From Escherichia phage vB_Eco_mar003J3: DNA of 64,000 nt. Below the pieces are notes generated by a model. That model saw only the letters and a list, made by a program, of their open reading frames with translations. It was not told the origin of the DNA and did not search any database. Positions within the stretch are counted from its first letter, which is position 1; every line of letters starts with the position of its first letter. The position numbers and the translations under genes are program-made. The stretch lies in the sequence record NC_048203.1; one strand, 5' to 3'. Shown here one piece after another: positions 7,944 to 38,575 of the stretch.

Positions 7944-10793
7944 TTAAATAGATGCCCAATCCACAGATTGCTCGCCATTATCACCTTCTGCTCTTATACG
8001 GAAGCGTAACTTCCTATTAATACCTAGAGCATCCTCGTTATGAAGAGCATAGTCTGCCTTATTGTATATCAGTAGATAATCGTAGACATACTGATCTTCA
8101 ATTCGTACACTTCTTAATAAACGATCTAGGTTATCGTAGATTTCGAGAGTGTAGAAGATTCCATCAATGATATCTTCTTCTGGAATTCTATCCCAGGCCA
8201 ACTTAACGTCTGGTCCTACAAACTCCGATACATCTCCTGAAGCTGTATTAGTAACTCTGAAGTTACTAACGACGCTTAAGTTTTTAGCAGAGTTAAGTTC
8301 TACTGATAGTGTTACTGGAGAACTTCGTCTACCATTAATATCTACAGCTCTAATCTCAAATACTGCTAAACCAGCAGGTTCTCCAATAATTTCTTGGATC
8401 ATTCGTAGATTTGGATTAGTTTCTAATTGCTGTACGATATAAGGATCAGCATGTCCAGAGTGAACGATGGAGTAATAAACAACGTTATTAGTTAAGCTAG
8501 GAAGCCAAGATAGCTCACCATTCTTACCAATAGATCCTACTTGTCCACCCGGTGTTGGTGTATACATAAAGTCTCTAGGAGGCAGTACGTTATTACTAAC
8601 ATCAGGGATATCGTTACCACTATTATCAACCTGCTCGGAGTTAATGAATACATCCTCACCGTACTCTTGCAGTGTAATATTAATCTTACCTTCTCTAGAG
8701 TTTTCAACTTCATCAACTAGGAAGTATTTCTTGTCCCAACCATAACGACCGTATGTAAAAGCAATCGGATCGTTAGGCTCAATGCCTATGAAATGATATG
8801 GTAATGAGAATGTGAGAGTTCGTGAGTAACGAGACTTTTTCAGTTCTCTATCTGCAAAGCTACGCGCAGTATAGTAGTTAGTGATGTTTGCAAAAGAAAG
8901 CTGAAGTTTTTTATCTAACCCTTTATCTTGCTCCTTAAATATAGAGTTAAAGAATGTAATGGAGTTAGTTTTCCAGCTTAATGCGGGATCTAGTATAGAG
9001 GCTTGTACTGAGTTGAATTTATTTCTACCAGTAGTATCTGACAATTCCAGATCACCATAGGTATCTAAGAAGTCAATCTCCAGTGGAGTATTCGAGAACT
9101 TCTCAACAGTTATTCTATACTGACCAGATAAGTTGTTGATAGCACCTCCATAAGACTCTATTAATCCCTGCACGTTTTTAAATACTGACTCAGAGGTATC
9201 GAGAATAGTATTCATTTGAACTATTTGTCTATTCTCTCCTACAGCATCAGTCCATCCAACGTATCTCCAGTAGGGTTGCCAAGAAACCTGATAGGATTCA
9301 TCAATGATATCCAGGATAGCTGCTTCTTGAATAAGTTGCTGGAGAGGGAACTGATCAATAGTGATATTAGCACCGTAGCGGTCAGAGGTTAGGTAGTCCA
9401 GAGTTTGCCAGATACCGTTTAAGCTAGTCTTATCAGCAGTTACTCTACCATCTGAATGGTAGATTTTAGTCTTCTTACCTTGAACTTCAGCACTAACTTC
9501 TGGAATTTCTGTTCTGTTTTCGTTAATAGTAAAGCGAACAATAGCATAAGCAGTATCTAACAGTTTATAACGAGAGTCCCAGTATTCCGGTCCATTCTCA
9601 TTCATGTTCTGTAGATAGAAACCTTTCTCTTTTGCAATGTTAACTAGAACATCCGCAGCAGATTGGTCTGCTCTACCATGGTAAGTCCAGATACGGATAT
9701 CACCATTACCATCATTATACCTATATTCCTGTCCATGAACAGAAGGTTCAGAGCTTGATTGACCAGAAGCAATACGTTGCATGGTATCTCCAGCTACTTT
9801 CTTAGTACCAAAGCAAGTACGAGACTTACTATCATTAGGATCAATACAGATCATTGGTACATCACCAAAGTAGAAATCTAGAAATCCATCAATCTCACCC
9901 TCACAGAATGCATACACTATATATACGATATTAGGGTTATGCAGCTCAGTATCTGCGAATACGGGGATTCCAGGAATTTTCTGAGTTCCATACACTACCG
10001 GGAGGAACTTAGCCGCTAAGTTAAAATCGATATCAACTTCCTTAGTCACAGTCTCATAGTATTTCTTCATGCTATAGCTTCTAGAAAGACCAAATAACTT
10101 TTTCTTAGACTGTAACTTGTAGCGTTCTTCCTGAACCTGATACTTAGCTAGAATAGAGATACTCTTATTAGCGTGGAAGAATCCATAGTCCTCTTGATAT
10201 TCAGGTCGCTTAGCGCCGTTAGATGGAACTAATTGGCCAGCAACAATCTCAAGTCCCCTATGGGCAGCATCATCTGTGAAACGTCCGTTTACTCTATCAA
10301 AGTCATAGAATTGATTTGAACAGTTCCATGTGATAGTAGATGTGCTAATTCCAGAAGTACCAATGTTATCCTTAATACCTCCACCAGTAATTTTACCACG
10401 AAAGTAAAGTAAAGGACCATTAGTGTCTGAATCTACAGGAAGAATATTGCCTTCTTCATCAATAACCGCTTGATGGATTGAGATAGACCTATCTAGGAAG
10501 GATACACCATTTTGGACTAGTTTTAATACTTCATCCTCAGCAGTACCTGTGATAGTAAAAGAAAGACTACCAATGGAAAGATCTCTATTTTGTTTATGTG
10601 TTGTTATAGACTTAACCTTACCGGATGTATAAAGAATACCATTATATCTTACATCTCTAAAATAATCTGTAAGATATATGTACGCAGAACTTGATCCGGT
10701 AGAGCTTGGCAATTCAAGAGTAATAAGGCATGCAGTTTTTATTTTATTATTGGTTCTTAGATACTCTCTTGCACTGTCAAGAATTTTCTTCAT
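7944..10793 (-). CDS. baseplate hub protein (T5 pb3-like)
   Basis: 949 aa, same length as T5 pb3; follows Dit gene with 4-nt overlap. Confidence 0.7.
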   Translation of the reverse strand: MKKILDSAREYLRTNNKIKTACLITLELPSSTGSSSAYIYLTDYFRDVRYNGILYTSGKVKSITTHKQNRDLSIGSLSFTITGTAEDEVLKLVQNGVSFLDRSISIHQAVIDEEGNILPVDSDTNGPLLYFRGKITGGGIKDNIGTSGISTSTITWNCSNQFYDFDRVNGRFTDDAAHRGLEIVAGQLVPSNGAKRPEYQEDYGFFHANKSISILAKYQVQEERYKLQSKKKLFGLSRSYSMKKYYETVTKEVDIDFNLAAKFLPVVYGTQKIPGIPVFADTELHNPNIVYIVYAFCEGEIDGFLDFYFGDVPMICIDPNDSKSRTCFGTKKVAGDTMQRIASGQSSSEPSVHGQEYRYNDGNGDIRIWTYHGRADQSAADVLVNIAKEKGFYLQNMNENGPEYWDSRYKLLDTAYAIVRFTINENRTEIPEVSAEVQGKKTKIYHSDGRVTADKTSLNGIWQTLDYLTSDRYGANITIDQFPLQQLIQEAAILDIIDESYQVSWQPYWRYVGWTDAVGENRQIVQMNTILDTSESVFKNVQGLIESYGGAINNLSGQYRITVEKFSNTPLEIDFLDTYGDLELSDTTGRNKFNSVQASILDPALSWKTNSITFFNSIFKEQDKGLDKKLQLSFANITNYYTARSFADRELKKSRYSRTLTFSLPYHFIGIEPNDPIAFTYGRYGWDKKYFLVDEVENSREGKINITLQEYGEDVFINSEQVDNSGNDIPDVSNNVLPPRDFMYTPTPGGQVGSIGKNGELSWLPSLTNNVVYYSIVHSGHADPYIVQQLETNPNLRMIQEIIGEPAGLAVFEIRAVDINGRRSSPVTLSVELNSAKNLSVVSNFRVTNTASGDVSEFVGPDVKLAWDRIPEEDIIDGIFYTLEIYDNLDRLLRSVRIEDQYVYDYLLIYNKADYALHNEDALGINRKLRFRIRAEGDNGEQSVDWASI

Positions 10794-34835: not shown

Positions 34836-35165
34836 CCCTGTTAATAACTTATACAAAAAGCAAAAATGAAATTTAATGAGTTATCCACTTGATTTTTCAA
34901 AAAAGTATTTTCTGCTGTTATTTTTCATTGACAAATAAGTCTGGACGTGTATCAGATCGTTAGCAGACTAATAATCGCTAGGATGATAATCACGCTGGTG
35001 GATTGTAACGGCTGAAATCATTAGCAGACTATTAATCAAGGAAAATCCTATTAGCCAACTAACTATTTCATAATATATAATATACATATAAATTAATGAG
35101 AAATAATAAATATGAGAAACTATCGGGCTAAGTGAGAACCACTATCATTTAACTTATACCCAAAG

Positions 35166-35174
35166 TTATCCACA
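35166..35174 (+). promoter_or_regulatory. DnaA box TTATCCACA
   Basis: perfect 9-mer consensus. Confidence 0.6.
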
Positions 35175-35214
35175 GCACAAAATAACTTGACGCAATAGGC
35201 GACGTTTTGGCGAC

Positions 35215-35223
35215 TTATCCACA
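35215..35223 (+). promoter_or_regulatory. DnaA box TTATCCACA
   Basis: perfect 9-mer consensus, 49 bp from first box. Confidence 0.6.
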
Positions 35224-35243
35224 GACTTATATACAGGTTATCC

Positions 35244-35263
35244 TACTGTATAAATATACAGGG
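35244..35263. promoter_or_regulatory. LexA (SOS) box-like palindrome followed by TAGAAT -10-like hexamer
   Basis: TACTGTATAAATATACAGGG: CTGT-N8-ACAG core, 18/20 to TACTGTATATATATACAGTA. Confidence 0.5.
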
Positions 35264-35510
35264 TAGAATGGTAGCAGTAACAACCGCAATCAAATTTAAG
35301 CGGCCTAGAACGCGCTACACGGCGTTTTCTCACTGCTGCCCTTATTATAATAAAGCCTTGTGTACACTTACAGAGTGCTAGAAATAGAAAACGCGCGGAT
35401 ATCATAAAAACAGGCAGTAAGCAAGGAATAAAAAACCTTTTCTTTTTCCTTGCCCCTAGCGAACAAATATCTATATCATTCACTCACCGATTAACGAGGG
35501 AGACAAAGAA

Positions 35511-36536
35511 ATGTCTACTGTAAGAATTGCAGTACCAGCAAACGCCACTATTATTAAGGGTAGTTTGCGCAACCTGCTAGACGGATCAAGTCTAGCAAGC
35601 CTACAGCTAGACGGATCAAGTCTAGCAAGCCTACAACATACGGCGGCAATGGTTGAAAAGATTCACGATGAAATTTTAGATAATAATGATACTCATTATT
35701 GTTTAAGTGATTTCACACAATTACTAGACCCTACCCGCGTTCTAGTGCTTTACAACCGTGACTATCACATCATGCGAAATCAGCGGGGAAGAGATATTGA
35801 TTTTATCATTGTAGGTCACGACGAAAAAAGCTATATTGCCCGTGGTTACAATGTACAAGAAAAAGAAATGGTTTTCGCTACTCGCGTAAATGGTATTAAT
35901 TCCAGCGATGTAGAAGATTTACTATCTAGTATTTGTGGCGAATTGACAAGCGCCATTAAACGTGCTGATAGTTACGCAATCGAAACAACTGGCGTATTGT
36001 GTTTTGGACGCGCTAGAGGTAACATGTTGATCCCTAACGATTATTTAGAGTATGGGAATGAATCAAACGTTGCAAACGCTGGATTTACACTTTTACCGCT
36101 TGACAATGTAACAAAACAGGCTGTACAATCTCAAACTTCAAGCGCAAATGCGCAAACTACTGAAAATAAAGGAAATATTATGTCTAAAGTATCTTCTATC
36201 GTTGCTGCTAATAAATCCGCCGTTGTAAACGCTGCTAAACTGGAAGTGGGTAAAATTGCACTGACTCAAGTCACAAAAGTAGCGGCGAAAAAAGCACCGT
36301 TTATGATTAAAGGGTATATTGATACGCCGATTGGTCGTGTAGTGATCGCTAACCTGCTGAGTGTAGCGGTTGACCAGTACGCCCCGACTAATGCGAAAGC
36401 TAAAGCGGTAGCAGGCGCGGCAATGGAAGCGGCAATGTTGGAAATGGTACAAAGTTTCAATATTGCTGAAATGATCGATGAAATGGTAAAAGGTATTGAC
36501 ATTTCAACCTTTACCCAAAATGCTGAAAGCGAGTAA
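35511..36536 (+). CDS. hypothetical protein with internal tandem duplication and Ala/Val-rich C-terminal region
   Basis: 341 aa; RBS GAGGGAG; rho-independent terminator downstream. Confidence 0.6.
   Translation: MSTVRIAVPANATIIKGSLRNLLDGSSLASLQLDGSSLASLQHTAAMVEKIHDEILDNNDTHYCLSDFTQLLDPTRVLVLYNRDYHIMRNQRGRDIDFIIVGHDEKSYIARGYNVQEKEMVFATRVNGINSSDVEDLLSSICGELTSAIKRADSYAIETTGVLCFGRARGNMLIPNDYLEYGNESNVANAGFTLLPLDNVTKQAVQSQTSSANAQTTENKGNIMSKVSSIVAANKSAVVNAAKLEVGKIALTQVTKVAAKKAPFMIKGYIDTPIGRVVIANLLSVAVDQYAPTNAKAKAVAGAAMEAAMLEMVQSFNIAEMIDEMVKGIDISTFTQNAESE
35577..35636 (+). repeat. tandem 30-bp duplication (29/30 identical) inside CDS
   Basis: ctagacggatcaagtctagcaagcctaca[g/a] twice; encodes LDGSSLASLQ x2. 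Confidence 0.9.
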
Positions 36537-36564
36537 TAATTAGTCTAATGTAAAGTTTTGTAAA

Positions 36565-36590
36565 GGTCGCCCTAATCGGCGGCCTTTTTT
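36565..36590 (+). terminator. rho-independent terminator
   Basis: ggtcgcc-ctaatc-ggcggcc followed by TTTTTT. Confidence 0.65.
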
Positions 36591-36654
36591 GTTATAATGC
36601 CTTTACACCGAAACGGTGGATTGAAAATTTTCCCCGATTTCTAGGAGGCGTTAA

Positions 36655-36882
36655 ATGGTACATTCATCATCTTCTGCAATTTTTAATGGTATGGAATGGG
36701 TATCCGTTCCCACTATTGTAAGCGTTATGGTTTCGGAGTTTGGGATTGGTAAAACTTATGTTACCATTCAGGAGCTTTACGACAATGACAAGATTGATCA
36801 GCAAACAGCCGGATTTTTGCTGGATGAATTGAAAGCTAACCACTGCACCAAAAAGCAAGCGGCAAAAATTGTTTTAATGTAA
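36655..36882 (+). CDS. hypothetical small protein
   Basis: 75 aa; strong RBS CTAGGAGG 7 nt upstream. Confidence 0.55.
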   Translation: MVHSSSSAIFNGMEWVSVPTIVSVMVSEFGIGKTYVTIQELYDNDKIDQQTAGFLLDELKANHCTKKQAAKIVLM

Positions 36883-36930
36883 TTAATAACGGGGCGTTAC
36901 TTTCGCCCCTAATTTCTAGGAGCTAATAAA

Positions 36931-37080
36931 ATGGTTATTTTTCGATCAGTTCTAGCAGGTATCTTGGGCGCTATTTTATCGTTGTTTGCAATAGCTTTCG
37001 GTGTTCATGCCGTTATTATCGGCGCGGGTATCGCGGGGTTTTCTTACCTGTTAGGCTGTATGACTGGTAAAGGGGGATAA
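36931..37080 (+). CDS. 49-aa hydrophobic glycine-zipper membrane peptide (not in ORF track)
   Basis: ATG at 36931 preceded by TCTAGGAGC; MVIFRSVLAGILGAILSLFAIAFGVHAVIIGAGIAGFSYLLGCMTGKGG; stop 37078..37080. Confidence 0.5.
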   Translation: MVIFRSVLAGILGAILSLFAIAFGVHAVIIGAGIAGFSYLLGCMTGKGG

Positions 37081-37082
37081 AA

Positions 37083-37295
37083 ATGTTAAAAAATGTAAGC
37101 CTTGCCCGTTCTAAAGGTTTTAAGCTGGTGGATGTTAACACGTTCGAGCGTCCAGATTGTAAAATCGAATATGTAGCACGCAACAAAAACGCGTTTCGTG
37201 TTACAGAAAAGAAATTTGACAAGCGCGGCAATTTGGTAGCCGAAACGGTTAAACACTTTGCCACCTTTTACGCTGCGTTTCGGGGAGTGTTATAA
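37083..37295 (+). CDS. hypothetical small protein
   Basis: 70 aa, starts 2 nt after the membrane peptide stop. Confidence 0.5.
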   Translation: MLKNVSLARSKGFKLVDVNTFERPDCKIEYVARNKNAFRVTEKKFDKRGNLVAETVKHFATFYAAFRGVL

Positions 37296-37296
37296 A

Positions 37297-37641
37297 ATGG
37301 TAATTTACGAGGGCAACCGATTTGTAACTAATTGCCGTCCGGCATTATTAGCAAACTATTTAAATCAGCTTTCACCAGTTTATAAAGGCGTGGTTAATAT
37401 CTATGAGGGCAAAGCACATTATAAAATTTCTGCCGTTGTCGCCCGTGAACTAGCGTTTCAATTTTTAACTTTTGGGTCTTGTGACGTTCAGGTTATGGGG
37501 GAAGCGTTAATAGCGGAAAATGAAAATGAATTTATTGACATTTTCCGCAAAGTATGTACAGAGCGCCTGATTATGAAAGGCGCGTATATTCAATCAACCG
37601 CTGAAAGTATCGAAACAGCGTTTCGAAAGGTGGCGCAATGA
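37297..37641 (+). CDS. hypothetical protein (likely start at internal ATG 37297 rather than 37258)
   Basis: RBS GGGGAG upstream of 37297; stop of upstream gene at 37293..37295. Confidence 0.5.
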   Translation: MVIYEGNRFVTNCRPALLANYLNQLSPVYKGVVNIYEGKAHYKISAVVARELAFQFLTFGSCDVQVMGEALIAENENEFIDIFRKVCTERLIMKGAYIQSTAESIETAFRKVAQ

Positions 37642-37823
37642 CTAGAAATGAAGCTGTTAAAGCTATGTTAGAAGGTAAAAAAGTAACTCATCGTTATTTT
37701 TCCATGCATGAATATTTATTCATGAAATATGAAGTGATCACCACGGAGGATGGTTATAAATTTAATCATGAATTTTATAGCCGTGAAATGTTTAATGATG
37801 GCTGGCAGCTTTATTATGAATAG
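37638..37823 (+). CDS. hypothetical small protein
   Basis: 61 aa; ATGA start/stop overlap with upstream gene. Confidence 0.5.
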   Translation: MTRNEAVKAMLEGKKVTHRYFSMHEYLFMKYEVITTEDGYKFNHEFYSREMFNDGWQLYYE

Positions 37824-37949
37824 CTGGTGGCGAAAAACACAAAGCCATAAATCTAATAATACCGCTGGGAAACATTCCCAGCGTTTACGATTTGGTAATG
37901 GCTTCACAATGATATTGATAATCATTCTCATTCTAGGAGCAATGGCGTT

Positions 37950-38144
37950 ATGAGTGATAAAATTGTTGTAACTAAAACTACTGTTACCGTTGATACTTTC
38001 TTTGTGCCTGATACGCTGGAAAATCGGCAAGCGGTGGAGCGTGGCGATTATGATAAAGTGATTTATGATAACGATGGTTACTATCAACATTTGGTAGACT
38101 CCTACGGCGAAAGCGAAAAGATCACACATCGACTACCAGACTAA
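37950..38144 (+). CDS. hypothetical small protein
   Basis: 64 aa; RBS TAGGAGC upstream; terminator downstream. Confidence 0.5.
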   Translation: MSDKIVVTKTTVTVDTFFVPDTLENRQAVERGDYDKVIYDNDGYYQHLVDSYGESEKITHRLPD

Positions 38145-38150
38145 TAATAA

Positions 38151-38180
38151 CGGGGCGCAACTATCGGCCCCGTCTTTTCT
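38151..38180 (+). terminator. rho-independent terminator ending the plus-strand cassette
   Basis: cggggc-gcaactatcg-gccccg then TCTTTTCT. Confidence 0.65.
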
Positions 38181-38289: not shown

Positions 38290-38309
38290 TACTGTATAAA
38301 TATACAGTA
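38290..38309. promoter_or_regulatory. LexA (SOS) box-like palindrome followed by TAGAAT
   Basis: TACTGTATAAATATACAGTA: 19/20 to E. coli LexA consensus. Confidence 0.5.
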
Positions 38310-38390
38310 GAATAACCTGTTGATAAGTCTGTTGATAACGCCCCAAAATCGCTAGGATTTTGTCAAGTCAAATCGTGCTGTTAATAAACC

Positions 38391-38399
38391 TGTGGATAA
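38391..38399 (-). promoter_or_regulatory. DnaA box TTATCCACA (reverse orientation)
   Basis: plus strand tgtggataa. Confidence 0.55.
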
Positions 38400-38430
38400 C
38401 TTAAATAACAGTGTTTCTCACTTCGCTTTG

Positions 38431-38575
38431 TAAATGCGAGTCATTCTCATTATCATTAGCGTTTCCCTTCCTAAATGCAAATCATTCTCATTCGTATTCC
38501 GGTAGTCAAATGATAACTGTTCTCATTCGCATTCAACTTCTCAAATGCGAATCATTCTCATTATCATTCGCATTT
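38431..38575. repeat. three copies of AAATGC(G/A)A(G/A)TCATTCTCATT motif; third copy is a hairpin AAATGCGAAT...ATTCGCATTT
   Basis: copies at 38431..38459, 38471..38498, 38541..38575. Confidence 0.8.

What the first reader, a model, noticed from the sequence alone, without database searches (positions are those of the whole stretch)
35511..38144. Seven-gene plus-strand cassette of unknown function, a candidate for undescribed host-takeover or anti-defence activity
This is a compact operon on the opposite strand to every neighbouring pre-early gene, with strong Shine-Dalgarno sites of the form CTAGGAG, translational coupling (ATGA overlaps) and rho-independent terminators at 36565..36590 and 38151..38180. 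It encodes a 341-aa protein with an Ala/Val-rich C-terminal region, a 49-aa glycine-zipper membrane peptide missing from the ORF track, and five proteins of 60-115 aa. None has a motif I recognise. In T5 the first-step-transfer DNA carries the still-unassigned functions that shut off host processes and protect incoming DNA from restriction, so small pre-early proteins are plausible inhibitors of host defence or repair. The specific function is inference only.
Basis: inference. Interest (0 to 1): 0.6.

Follow-up and report, generated by a model that had tools for sequence, protein, structure and literature searches.

The report
T5-type pre-early genes 011–017
This is the already-studied right-hand block of "first-step-transfer" genes of a T5-like phage. 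One gene is a known host-DNA nickase and two are known host poisons. The gene in its one variable slot has the fold of a phage protein that soaks up bacterial immune signals.

Summary
They are not undescribed: they are orthologues of phage T5 pre-early genes T5.011–T5.017, lying between the two DnaA-box inverted repeats of the first-step-transfer DNA.

Published work on T5 shows:
- 015 is an Ung-dependent nickase of abasic sites. The copy here is 89% identical, and K85, K94 and K111 are kept.
- 011 and 013 are toxic to E. coli.
- The hegG–017 block can be deleted.

It is not one operon. There are at least two transcription units: 011 alone, then 012–016/017.

Side findings:
- RefSeq and PHROGs place the "Ung nickase" name on the 70-aa 014 family, one gene off.
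- A conserved promoter plus start codon inside 011 may yield a separate 118-aa product.
- Near-consensus LexA boxes and same-strand Chi sites flank or dot the block.

Nothing here tests the anti-restriction idea.

The parts
35127..35263 (.). Left arm of the inverted repeat that brackets the block (Davison's IRC-spacer-IRD, Repeat Region 2). It holds DnaA boxes TTATCCACA at 35166 and 35215 and a LexA-box-like palindrome TACTGTATAAATATACAG at 35244-35261.
   Evidence: 135 nt, 75% complementary to 38292-38426; literature.
35450..35479 (+). Promoter-like site for 011 (TTGCCC-18-TATCAT). It is conserved with the promoter annotated upstream of T5.011.
35511..36536 (+). w011, 341 aa, orthologue of T5.011 (DUF7566). 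It has a variable N-terminal alpha/beta domain (30% identical to T5), a disordered Q/S/T/N linker and a conserved helical C-terminal module (92% identical). It contains an in-frame 30-nt perfect tandem duplication at 35576-35635.
   Evidence: T5.011 is toxic and disorganises the nucleoid.
36100..36536 (+). Candidate internal unit inside 011: TTGACA(36100)-18-TACAAT(36129), an AAGGA Shine-Dalgarno, and in-frame ATG 36180 (M224). It would give a 118-aa C-terminal product. This is a hypothesis.
   Evidence: 11/12 match to consensus; TTGACA and spacing invariant in 11 alleles; M224 and TENKGN invariant; linker disordered; wild-type 011 unclonable, recoded gene clonable.
36562..36598 (+). Intrinsic terminator after 011, immediately followed by the extended -10 TGTTATAAT for the 012-016/017 unit.
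   Evidence: invariant in T5, SP76 and the window; terminator annotated in T5.
36655..36882 (+). w012, 75 aa, orthologue of T5.012 (74% identical). Function unknown; not toxic in T5 screens.
36931..37080 (+). w013, 49 aa, a two-TM hydrophobic peptide and orthologue of T5.013 (63% identical, with a 10-11-aa loop deletion relative to T5).
   Evidence: T5.013 causes lysis-like cell damage.
37083..37295 (+). w014, 70 aa, basic (pI 10.1), orthologue of T5.014 (93% identical). Function unknown. It carries a misplaced 'Ung-dependent endonuclease' label in RefSeq and PHROGs. It contains a Chi site at 37124.
37297..37641 (+). w015, 114 aa, orthologue of T5.015 (89% identical; K85, K94 and K111 conserved), the Ung-dependent AP-site nickase.
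   Evidence: experiments on T5.015.
37638..37823 (+). w016, 61 aa, not homologous to T5.016. It is a minimal Tad2/DUF2829-fold protein occupying a variable slot between 015 and 017.
37823..37949 (+). Conserved 126-nt spacer. It holds a Chi site (37823-37830), a 9-bp hairpin (37863-37883), a copy of an iss-type repeat (37916-37933) and the Shine-Dalgarno of 017.
   Evidence: D2, D7; z -3.26.
37950..38144 (+). w017, 64 aa, acidic (pI 4.6), orthologue of T5.017 (76% identical). Function unknown; not toxic in T5 screens. Davison's T5p016, which I take to be this gene, is retained in T5-like phages that lack the rest of the block.
38150..38180 (+). Distal hairpin plus CTTTTCT, a weak terminator-like site.
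   Evidence: the equivalent site is annotated as a putative terminator in T5.
38290..38426 (.). Right arm of the inverted repeat (IRD'-spacer-IRC', the start of the injection-stop region). It holds the LexA-box-like palindrome at 38290-38309 (TACTGTATAAATATACAGTA) and a DnaA box at 38391-38399 (-).
   Evidence: literature.

Best explanation
The region is the right-hand block of pre-early (first-step-transfer) genes of a T5-like phage (Markadamsvirinae, Epseptimavirus-like). It is orthologous to T5 genes 011-017 and lies between the two DnaA-box inverted repeats next to the injection-stop region.

It is not one machine. It is a string of small, independently acting accessory effectors. Host RNA polymerase transcribes them from sigma-70 promoters as soon as the first 8% of the genome enters.

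- 015 binds host uracil-DNA glycosylase and nicks the abasic sites it makes, which stalls host replication. This is shown for T5.015 and inferred here from 89% identity and the conserved lysines.
- 011 is a two-domain protein that perturbs the nucleoid. Toxicity is shown for T5.011; the mechanism is unknown.
- 013 is a two-helix membrane peptide that damages the envelope. This is shown for T5.013.
- The gene in the variable 016 slot is a minimal Tad2-fold protein. It most likely binds and sequesters a nucleotide immune signal before the rest of the genome enters. This is inferred from fold and profile similarity only.
- 012, 014 and 017 are conserved, non-toxic and of unknown role.

The block is dispensable in laboratory hosts, so it presumably pays off only in particular hosts or conditions.
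For: Synteny and orthology to T5.011-017:
- T5 annotation.
- Pairwise identities of 55, 74, 63, 93, 89 and 76% for six of the seven genes.
- The same order in phages SP76 and 1-19.
- 438 phage records carry the DNA.
- Hits fall inside annotated left terminal repeats.
- The flanking inverted repeats match Davison's Repeat Regions 2 and 3.

Published function:
- T5.015 binds Ung and nicks AP sites. K85, K94 and K111 are present here.
- 011, 013 and 015 are toxic with distinct phenotypes, and the mutant lacking hegG-017 together with the left-arm genes is viable.
- Pre-early gene products were detected by proteomics in the related phage Bas33.

w016:
- The AF2 model has pLDDT 97.4.
- BFVD hits are named DUF2829 or Tad2-like.
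- hhalign gives 90.8% probability, E 1.2e-6.
- 34 of 74 family members hit PF11195 weakly.

Transcription units.
Against: - No experiment exists for this phage. All functions are transferred from T5.
- w011's N-terminal domain is only 30% identical to that of T5.011, so its target may differ.
- w013 lacks the 10-11-aa loop of T5.013. One of the two screens found T5.013 non-toxic.
- w016 scores below the Pfam cut-off (14.4 against 25 bits).
- Its family profile does not find Tad2 chains by sequence.
- It lacks the central insert with helix alpha2 that forms the Tad2 dimer interface.
- It keeps only 4 of the 10 SPO1 Tad2 ligand-contact residues identically.
- The Tad2 side of the hhalign comparison was built from fragments of only four PDB sequences.
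Confidence: 0.85

Rival explanations
1. One reading: an undescribed cassette whose small proteins protect incoming DNA from restriction (the classic T5 'restriction insensitivity' function) or carry out other unassigned host shut-off functions.
For: The restriction-insensitivity function is still unassigned and is attributed to pre-early products. w017 is small and acidic (pI 4.6), as DNA mimics are. The dLdR mutant was characterised on E. coli strain F only, and the authors say other hosts and defence systems remain to be tested.
Against: The block is described, and one gene has a different, proven function. T5-like phages of Davison's types 2 and 3 lack ORFs 011-015. Epseptimaviruses carry the block yet are more R-M-sensitive than tequintaviruses. 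Davison's candidate is 007, outside the block. No similarity to Ocr, ArdA or other known anti-restriction proteins appeared in the Pfam or PDB searches.
Confidence: 0.1
2. w016 has the Tad2 fold but is not a signal sponge. It acts by binding a host or phage protein, or has lost ligand binding.
For: It lacks the alpha2 insert. 4 of the 10 ligand-contact positions are non-conservatively changed, including W73->E and N26->F. The family has its own invariant signature, H18, F21, E25, E37, G39 and W56, which differs from the Tad2 R-GWNG motif. A DUF2829 protein was first reported as an inhibitor of type II CRISPR-Cas. No fusions to other sponge domains were found in 10 long family members.
Against: All characterised DUF2829 proteins in the papers read are sponges, with varied ligands. 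The family is small, phage-borne, spread across unrelated virulent phages and placed first in early gene arrays. The I-x-T-x-D strand and the terminal W are kept.
Confidence: 0.35
3. The block is a mobile or invertible cargo segment defined by the 135-nt inverted repeats. Its gene content is incidental 'moron' load rather than an adapted takeover module.
For: Inverted repeats bracket it exactly. The distance between the arms and the gene content vary. In type 2 and 3 phages the segment is replaced by other ORFs read in the opposite direction. The 016 slot holds four different inserts between conserved flanks.
Against: Six of the seven genes are conserved in order and sequence across hundreds of Markadamsvirinae. 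No recombinase or transposase lies within or beside it. The repeats have a proposed separate role in injection stop.
Confidence: 0.15

Closest known systems
Phage T5 pre-early genes T5.011-T5.017 (right-hand FST transcription units; NC_005859 6495-9157)
   Same: Position between Repeat Regions 2 and 3, strand, and gene order. The promoter, the terminator after 011 and the extended -10 are conserved. Six of the seven proteins are orthologous at 55-93% identity.
   Different: T5.016 is replaced by an unrelated 61-aa gene plus a 126-nt spacer. No hegG homing endonuclease lies upstream. The N-domain of 011 is only 30% identical and carries a 10-aa duplication. 013 is 10 aa shorter.
T5.015, Ung-dependent AP-site endonuclease (Mahata et al. 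2021, PMC8201957)
   Same: 114 aa, 89% identical over the full length. K85, K94 and K111, whose triple substitution abolishes toxicity, are conserved.
   Different: Not tested in this phage or with Salmonella Ung. There is no solved structure or recognisable nuclease motif.
Tad2 / DUF2829 (PF11195) immune-signal sponges: SPO1 gp34.65, HgmTad2 = AcrIIA7 (8kbi), ModTad2 (9eib)
   Different: 61 aa against 86-104 aa. It lacks the beta2-beta3 insert with helix alpha2 (the dimer interface). It falls below the Pfam threshold. Only 4 of 10 ligand residues are identical. It has a different invariant signature. Oligomeric state and ligand are unknown.
T5 Hdi (T5.008), with promoter P_H22 embedded in its coding sequence
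   Same: A precedent in the same FST DNA for a strong sigma-70 promoter inside a small toxic pre-early gene, which makes the DNA hard to clone.
   Different: P_H22 is experimentally defined. The promoter inside 011 is only predicted and conserved.

Membership tests
T5 FST right-hand pre-early block (T5.011-017) | Lies in the terminal-repeat/FST DNA between the IRC-spacer-IRD and IRD'-spacer-IRC' repeats, beside dmp-A1-A2-hdi and on the opposite strand. | tested here: met
   Homologous hits lie under 'left terminal repeat' features.
T5 FST right-hand pre-early block (T5.011-017) | Each gene is orthologous to its T5 counterpart. | tested here: met
   Six of seven are orthologous at 55-93% identity. 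The 016 position is occupied by a non-homologous gene (15% identity). Annor et al. report 016 in fewer than 15% of Demerecviridae.
T5 FST right-hand pre-early block (T5.011-017) | Expressed in the pre-early phase from host sigma-70 promoters. | not testable with these tools
   Only promoter-like sequences conserved with T5, and proteomics on the related phage Bas33.
T5.015 Ung-dependent AP endonuclease | Full-length sequence orthology with K85, K94 and K111 present. | tested here: met
   89% identity over 114 aa, and all three lysines are present. The mutant is described.
T5.015 Ung-dependent AP endonuclease | Binds Ung, nicks AP sites leaving 3'-OH and 5'-dRP ends, and its toxicity is abolished in delta-ung. 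| not testable with these tools
   Shown only for T5.015.
Tad2 / DUF2829 (PF11195) | Scores above the Pfam gathering threshold. | tested here: not met
   14.4 bits against 25. 34 of 74 relatives hit weakly (best E 1e-3). One long relative scored 18.8 bits, below the 25-bit cut-off.
Tad2 / DUF2829 (PF11195) | Tad2 fold: N-terminal helix plus antiparallel beta-sheet. | tested here: met
Tad2 / DUF2829 (PF11195) | Detectable profile-level homology. | tested here: met
   hhalign 90.8%, E 1.2e-6, 59 columns. Caveat: the Tad2 profile comes from fragments of four PDB sequences. hmmsearch of the family profile against the PDB found no Tad2 chain.
Tad2 / DUF2829 (PF11195) | Ligand-contact residues of SPO1 Tad2 (W25, N26, I63, T65, D67, H71, W73, S76, T78, D79). 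| tested here: inconclusive
   In the hhalign register, I, T, D and S are identical, W25->Y and D79->E are conservative, and N26->F, H71->N, W73->E and T78->R are not.
Tad2 / DUF2829 (PF11195) | beta2-beta3 insert with helix alpha2, which forms the V-shaped dimer; homotetramer with inter-protomer pockets. | tested here: not met
   The insert is absent (a gap; secondary structure; Tad2 architecture). Oligomeric state could not be modelled.
Tad2 / DUF2829 (PF11195) | Sequesters an immune signalling nucleotide and rescues phage from the cognate system. | not testable with these tools
   No experiment exists. No paper in the library links Tad2 with T5-like phages.
DNA N6-adenine methyltransferase (UniRef name on many 011 homologues) | AdoMet motif I (FxGxG) and catalytic motif IV ([DNS]PP[YFW]), or a Pfam methyltransferase domain. 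| tested here: not met
   No such motifs. Only DUF7566 in Pfam. No PDB relative. The name is carried by the GenBank record of one phage, STG2, and appears on many UniRef entries.
LexA (SOS) operator | CTGT-N8-ACAG palindrome close to the consensus TACTG(TA)5CAGTA. | tested here: met
   Two identical 18-mers. The right one, TACTGTATAAATATACAGTA, matches 19 of 20 consensus positions. The consensus is from my own knowledge. LexA binding was not tested.

The most novel reading that the evidence does not exclude
The 61-aa product of the variable 015/017 slot founds a 'mini-Tad2' family: at least 262 cluster representatives, present in T5-like, T4-like, rV5-like and other virulent phages. These would be stripped-down sponges with their own invariant signature (H18, F21, E25, E37, G39, W56). 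They would capture an immune signal different from those of canonical Tad2, and would be made from first-step-transfer DNA before the rest of the genome is exposed. In that reading, the repeat-bracketed right-hand FST block is a swappable counter-defence bay. 011 would encode two products through an internal promoter and start codon.
Probability: 0.3. Interest if true: 0.65.

Novelty: new member of a known kind. Interest (0 to 1): 0.4.

Why it matters
For the cassette as a whole, little changes. It should be annotated as the T5.011–017 orthologues, with 015 (not 014) named as the Ung-dependent nickase.

Three testable leads come out of the analysis:
- **A candidate counter-defence protein.** T5-like phages are known for resisting nuclease-based defences, but no counter-measure against signalling-based immunity appeared for them in the papers I searched. 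A Tad2-fold protein in a variable pre-early slot is a concrete candidate. It is only 61 residues long, so it would also help define the minimal sponge fold.
- **A possible second product of 011.** An internal promoter and start codon would explain why wild-type 011 could not be cloned. It would also change how toxicity experiments on 011 should be read.
- **Host-protein sites in the first DNA to enter.** Perfectly conserved LexA-type operators at the inner ends of the DnaA-box repeats, and same-strand Chi sites, suggest that LexA and RecBCD act on this DNA as well as DnaA. That bears on the unsolved questions of injection stop and end protection.

Tried and rejected
**Searches that gave nothing**
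- Pfam, NCBIfam and PDB sequence searches of 012, 013, 014, 015 and 017 gave nothing above noise.
- The word-index search with w016 found only two near-identical proteins. The profile version found 49 proteins, none with a Pfam label.
- hmmsearch of the w016 family profiles against the PDB did not reach Tad2. The link rests on fold and on profile–profile comparison.
- Ten long family members were scanned for fused sponge domains (Acb4, Sequestin). None was found.
- Gene neighbourhoods of w016 relatives in a T4-like phage and a Phapecoctavirus phage showed only arrays of hypothetical early genes.

**Labels and ideas rejected**
- The "DNA N-6-adenine methyltransferase" label on 011 homologues is rejected. 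There are no methyltransferase motifs or domains.
- A single seven-gene operon is rejected, because of the strong terminator after 011 followed by its own promoter.
- The 67-aa ORF at 37750–37953 is treated as non-coding. Its 5' part lies in the variable slot, and its 3' part lies in a spacer that is conserved whichever gene fills the slot.

**Tools or sources unavailable**
- The afdb50 fold library was not available.
- The supplement of Mahata et al. and Davison's 2015 review were not held.

**Literature searches**
- LexA plus T5, and Chi plus T5, found nothing relevant.


Full report
**Origin and observation.** The window is from a T5-like phage. The query region is 97% identical to Salmonella phages SP76 and GRNsp8 (Epseptimavirus) and matches 438 phage records. 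A block of 20 tRNA genes lies downstream.

Each belongs to a well-populated phage protein family (PHROG E-values 1e-20 to 1e-150). The neighbours on both sides are on the - strand: A2, 007 and hdi upstream, early genes downstream.

Some details need trimming:
- TTCTAGGAG precedes three genes only.
- There is one true ATGA overlap, at 015/016.
- The block is not a single operon.

A strong intrinsic terminator follows 011: a 10-bp stem plus a T-run, -16 kcal/mol, z -2.9. It abuts an extended -10, TGTTATAAT. Both are invariant between this phage, SP76 and T5 over about 60 nt, more conserved than the flanking coding sequence. Weaker hairpins follow 012 and 016, and the distal "terminator" is marginal.

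**Identity.** The RefSeq T5 record places T5.011–T5.017 in the left terminal repeat, which is the first-step-transfer DNA. They have the same order, strand, promoter and terminator. Pairwise identities to the T5 products are below.

| Gene | Identity to T5 |
|---|---|
| 011 | 55% |
| 012 | 74% |
| 013 | 63% |
| 014 | 93% |
| 015 | 89% |
| 016 position | 15% (not homologous) |
| 017 | 76% |

tblastn hits to 014 and to the 016-slot gene fall under "left terminal repeat" features in several records.

The block is bracketed by a 135-nt imperfect inverted repeat, 35127–35261 against 38292–38426. These are Davison's IRC-spacer-IRD and IRD'-spacer-IRC' with their DnaA boxes. He proposes them as part of the injection-stop signal, and he notes that the coding region between them is the most variable part of the FST DNA.

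**What is already known.**
- Mahata et al. cloned 13 T5 genes, including 011–017, and found 008, 011 and 015 toxic.
- 015 toxicity needs a functional Ung. 015 binds Ung, and the purified protein nicks Ung-generated abasic sites leaving Ape1-like ends. Expression arrests replication.
- Annor et al. (2026 preprint) found 011, 013 and 015 toxic. 011 gave uneven nucleoids, 013 gave lysis-like ghosts, and 015 gave elongated cells.
- In the same study, mutant dLdR adds deletion of hegG–017 to the left-arm deletions. It is viable and was the only mutant with smaller plaques. 016 occurs in fewer than 15% of Demerecviridae.
- Pre-early products are detected by proteomics in Bas33.

So "unknown function" is out of date for 015 and partly for 011 and 013. 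The copy of 015 here keeps K85, K94 and K111, the residues whose triple substitution abolishes toxicity.

**An annotation error.** RefSeq (T5, 1-19, EPS7 and others) and PHROGs (phrog_4227) attach [quoted passage not shown] to the 70-aa T5.014 family. The 114-aa T5.015 family (phrog_4379) is left "hypothetical". A 70-aa protein cannot carry K85, K94 and K111. T5.015 has lysines at exactly those positions. The label is one gene off.

**011.** Pfam gives only DUF7566. The AF2 model (mean pLDDT 65) has three parts:
- an alpha/beta N-domain, residues 1–195, pLDDT 80–90;
- a disordered Q/S/T/N-rich linker, residues 198–243;
- a helical C-terminal bundle.

**A possible second product of 011.** The best sigma-70 match in the cassette lies inside 011: TTGACA-18-TACAAT at 36100–36129, an 11/12 match to consensus. 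About 50 nt downstream come AAGGA and the in-frame ATG of M224.

Evidence from conservation:
- In 11 distinct alleles, TTGACA is invariant, including two synonymous positions.
- The 18-nt spacing is invariant.
- The TA...T of the -10 is invariant, while the flanks vary.
- M224 and the TENKGN that encodes the Shine-Dalgarno are invariant in 25 proteins.

Evidence from context:
- Only seven matches of 11/12 or better occur in the 64-kb window. One corresponds to P_H22 inside hdi.
- Annor et al. could not clone wild-type 011 but could clone a synonymously recoded version. An internal constitutive promoter driving a toxic 118-aa product would predict exactly that.

On its own the match is not significant: a chance hit is expected in about 14% of 3.6-kb sequences. 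The conservation is what makes it worth testing. This is an inference.

**The 016 slot.** Alignment of four phages shows a conserved left flank (the end of 015) and a conserved 126-nt right flank. Four different inserts lie between them:
- the 61-aa gene here;
- a 66-aa paralogue, 44% identical, in 1-19 and EPS7;
- an unrelated 70-aa ORF in SP76;
- T5.016 in T5.

The 61-aa family is large. There are 262 representatives at E ≤ 1e-3 in the 50%-clustered library. It occurs in 234 phage records, including T4-like, rV5-like, Felix-O1-like, Aeromonas and Pectobacterium phages. In the two neighbourhoods checked it is the first gene of an array of small hypothetical early genes.

Pfam gives a sub-threshold hit to Tad2-like PF11195 (14.4 bits), and 34 of 74 relatives do the same.

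Structure and profile evidence:
- The AF2 model is very confident (pLDDT 97.4).
- Foldseek against BFVD independently returns phage proteins named DUF2829 or Tad2-like.
- hhalign gives 90.8% probability, E 1.2e-6, over 59 columns, with a single central gap. The Tad2 side was a small profile built from PDB fragments.

Comparison with SPO1 Tad2, in that register:

| SPO1 Tad2 contact residue | In w016 |
|---|---|
| I63, T65, D67, S76 | identical |
| W25 | Y (conservative) |
| D79 | E (conservative) |
| N26, H71, W73, T78 | changed |

The missing segment is the beta2–beta3 insert with helix alpha2, which forms the Tad2 dimer. The family's own invariant residues are H18, F21, E25, E37, G39 and W56. 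They differ from the Tad2 R-GWNG motif.

I conclude that w016 is a minimal member of the Tad2 fold superfamily. That it is a signal sponge is the most likely function, but it is unproven. No paper in the library mentions Tad2 together with T5-like phages.

**The rest.** 012, 014 (basic, pI 10.1) and 017 (acidic, pI 4.6) have no detectable relatives of known function. They were not toxic in either screen. 017 is set apart from 016 by the spacer, a hairpin and an iss-type repeat. Davison reports that T5p016 is retained in phages that lack T5p011–T5p015. I take T5p016 to be 017, because his numbering runs one lower than the RefSeq locus tags from the homing endonuclease gene onward. 017 is therefore best seen as a separate unit.

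**Verdict.** The cassette is a new member of a known kind. Its value lies in three leads: the mini-Tad2 slot gene, the possible internal product of 011, and the host-factor sites (LexA boxes and Chi) around it. A correctable database error is a fourth outcome.

Noticed in passing
window 35244-35263 and 38290-38309: The identical 18-mer TACTGTATAAATATACAG sits at the inner end of each inverted-repeat arm. It is a near-consensus LexA/SOS box (CTGT-N8-ACAG). The right copy matches 19 of 20 positions of TACTG(TA)5CAGTA. These are the only two CTGT-N8-ACAG matches in the 64-kb window. The same 16-mer is at both equivalent places in T5 and phage 1-19. Davison lists palindromes in this repeat region but does not mention LexA, and a literature search found nothing. 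The exact 18-mer also occurs in 120 or more other viral contigs, many of them 30-50 kb long. On the right arm it overlaps a - strand promoter-like site, TTATCA-16-TATATT.
   Followed up: partly
window 34994, 37124, 37823 (+ strand); 42821 (-): There are four Chi sites (GCTGGTGG) against 0.97 expected. Three are on the + strand within 2.9 kb of FST DNA. One lies inside 014 and one overlaps the stop codon of w016. Same-strand Chi sites are found in T5 at 8127 (inside T5.014, as here) and 8689, and in phage 1-19 at three + strand positions. In this orientation they would be read by RecBCD coming from the right (orientation rule from my own knowledge).
   Followed up: partly
RefSeq/PHROG annotation of the 70-aa gene (window 37083-37295; T5.014): The product name 'endonuclease nicking abasic sites generated by host uracil glycosylase Ung' is attached to the T5.014 family (phrog_4227 and many RefSeq records). 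The published protein is the 114-aa T5.015: the K85A/K94A/K111A mutant needs more than 111 residues, and T5.015 has K at those positions.
   Followed up: yes
window 36100-36182 (inside w011): A conserved internal sigma-70 promoter-like site, Shine-Dalgarno and in-frame ATG (M224) could yield a separate 118-aa C-terminal product. It might explain why wild-type T5 011 could not be cloned while a recoded gene could.
   Followed up: partly
window 35576-35635: A perfect 30-nt tandem duplication inside w011 adds LDGSSLASLQ. It is absent from all 24 homologues aligned.
   Followed up: partly
homologues of w011 in UniRef: Many are named 'DNA N-6-adenine methyltransferase'. The GenBank record of phage STG2 carries the same name. 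No methyltransferase motif or domain is present.
   Followed up: yes
L001 8177-8671 (phage 1-19) and L002 4863-5003 (SP76): Extra ORFs are inserted in relatives: 164 aa between 011 and 012, and 46 aa between 014 and 015. Both are absent from this window, which shows further indel sites inside the block.
   Followed up: no
window 39722 (- strand): A perfect 12/12 sigma-70 consensus (TTGACA-17-TATAAT) points leftwards into the non-coding repeat (injection-stop) region.
   Followed up: no
window 37916-37933 vs 38435-38575: The spacer upstream of 017 carries a copy of the short direct repeat (..AATCATTCTCATT..) that is reiterated in the injection-stop region downstream of 017 (families D2 and D7).
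   Followed up: no
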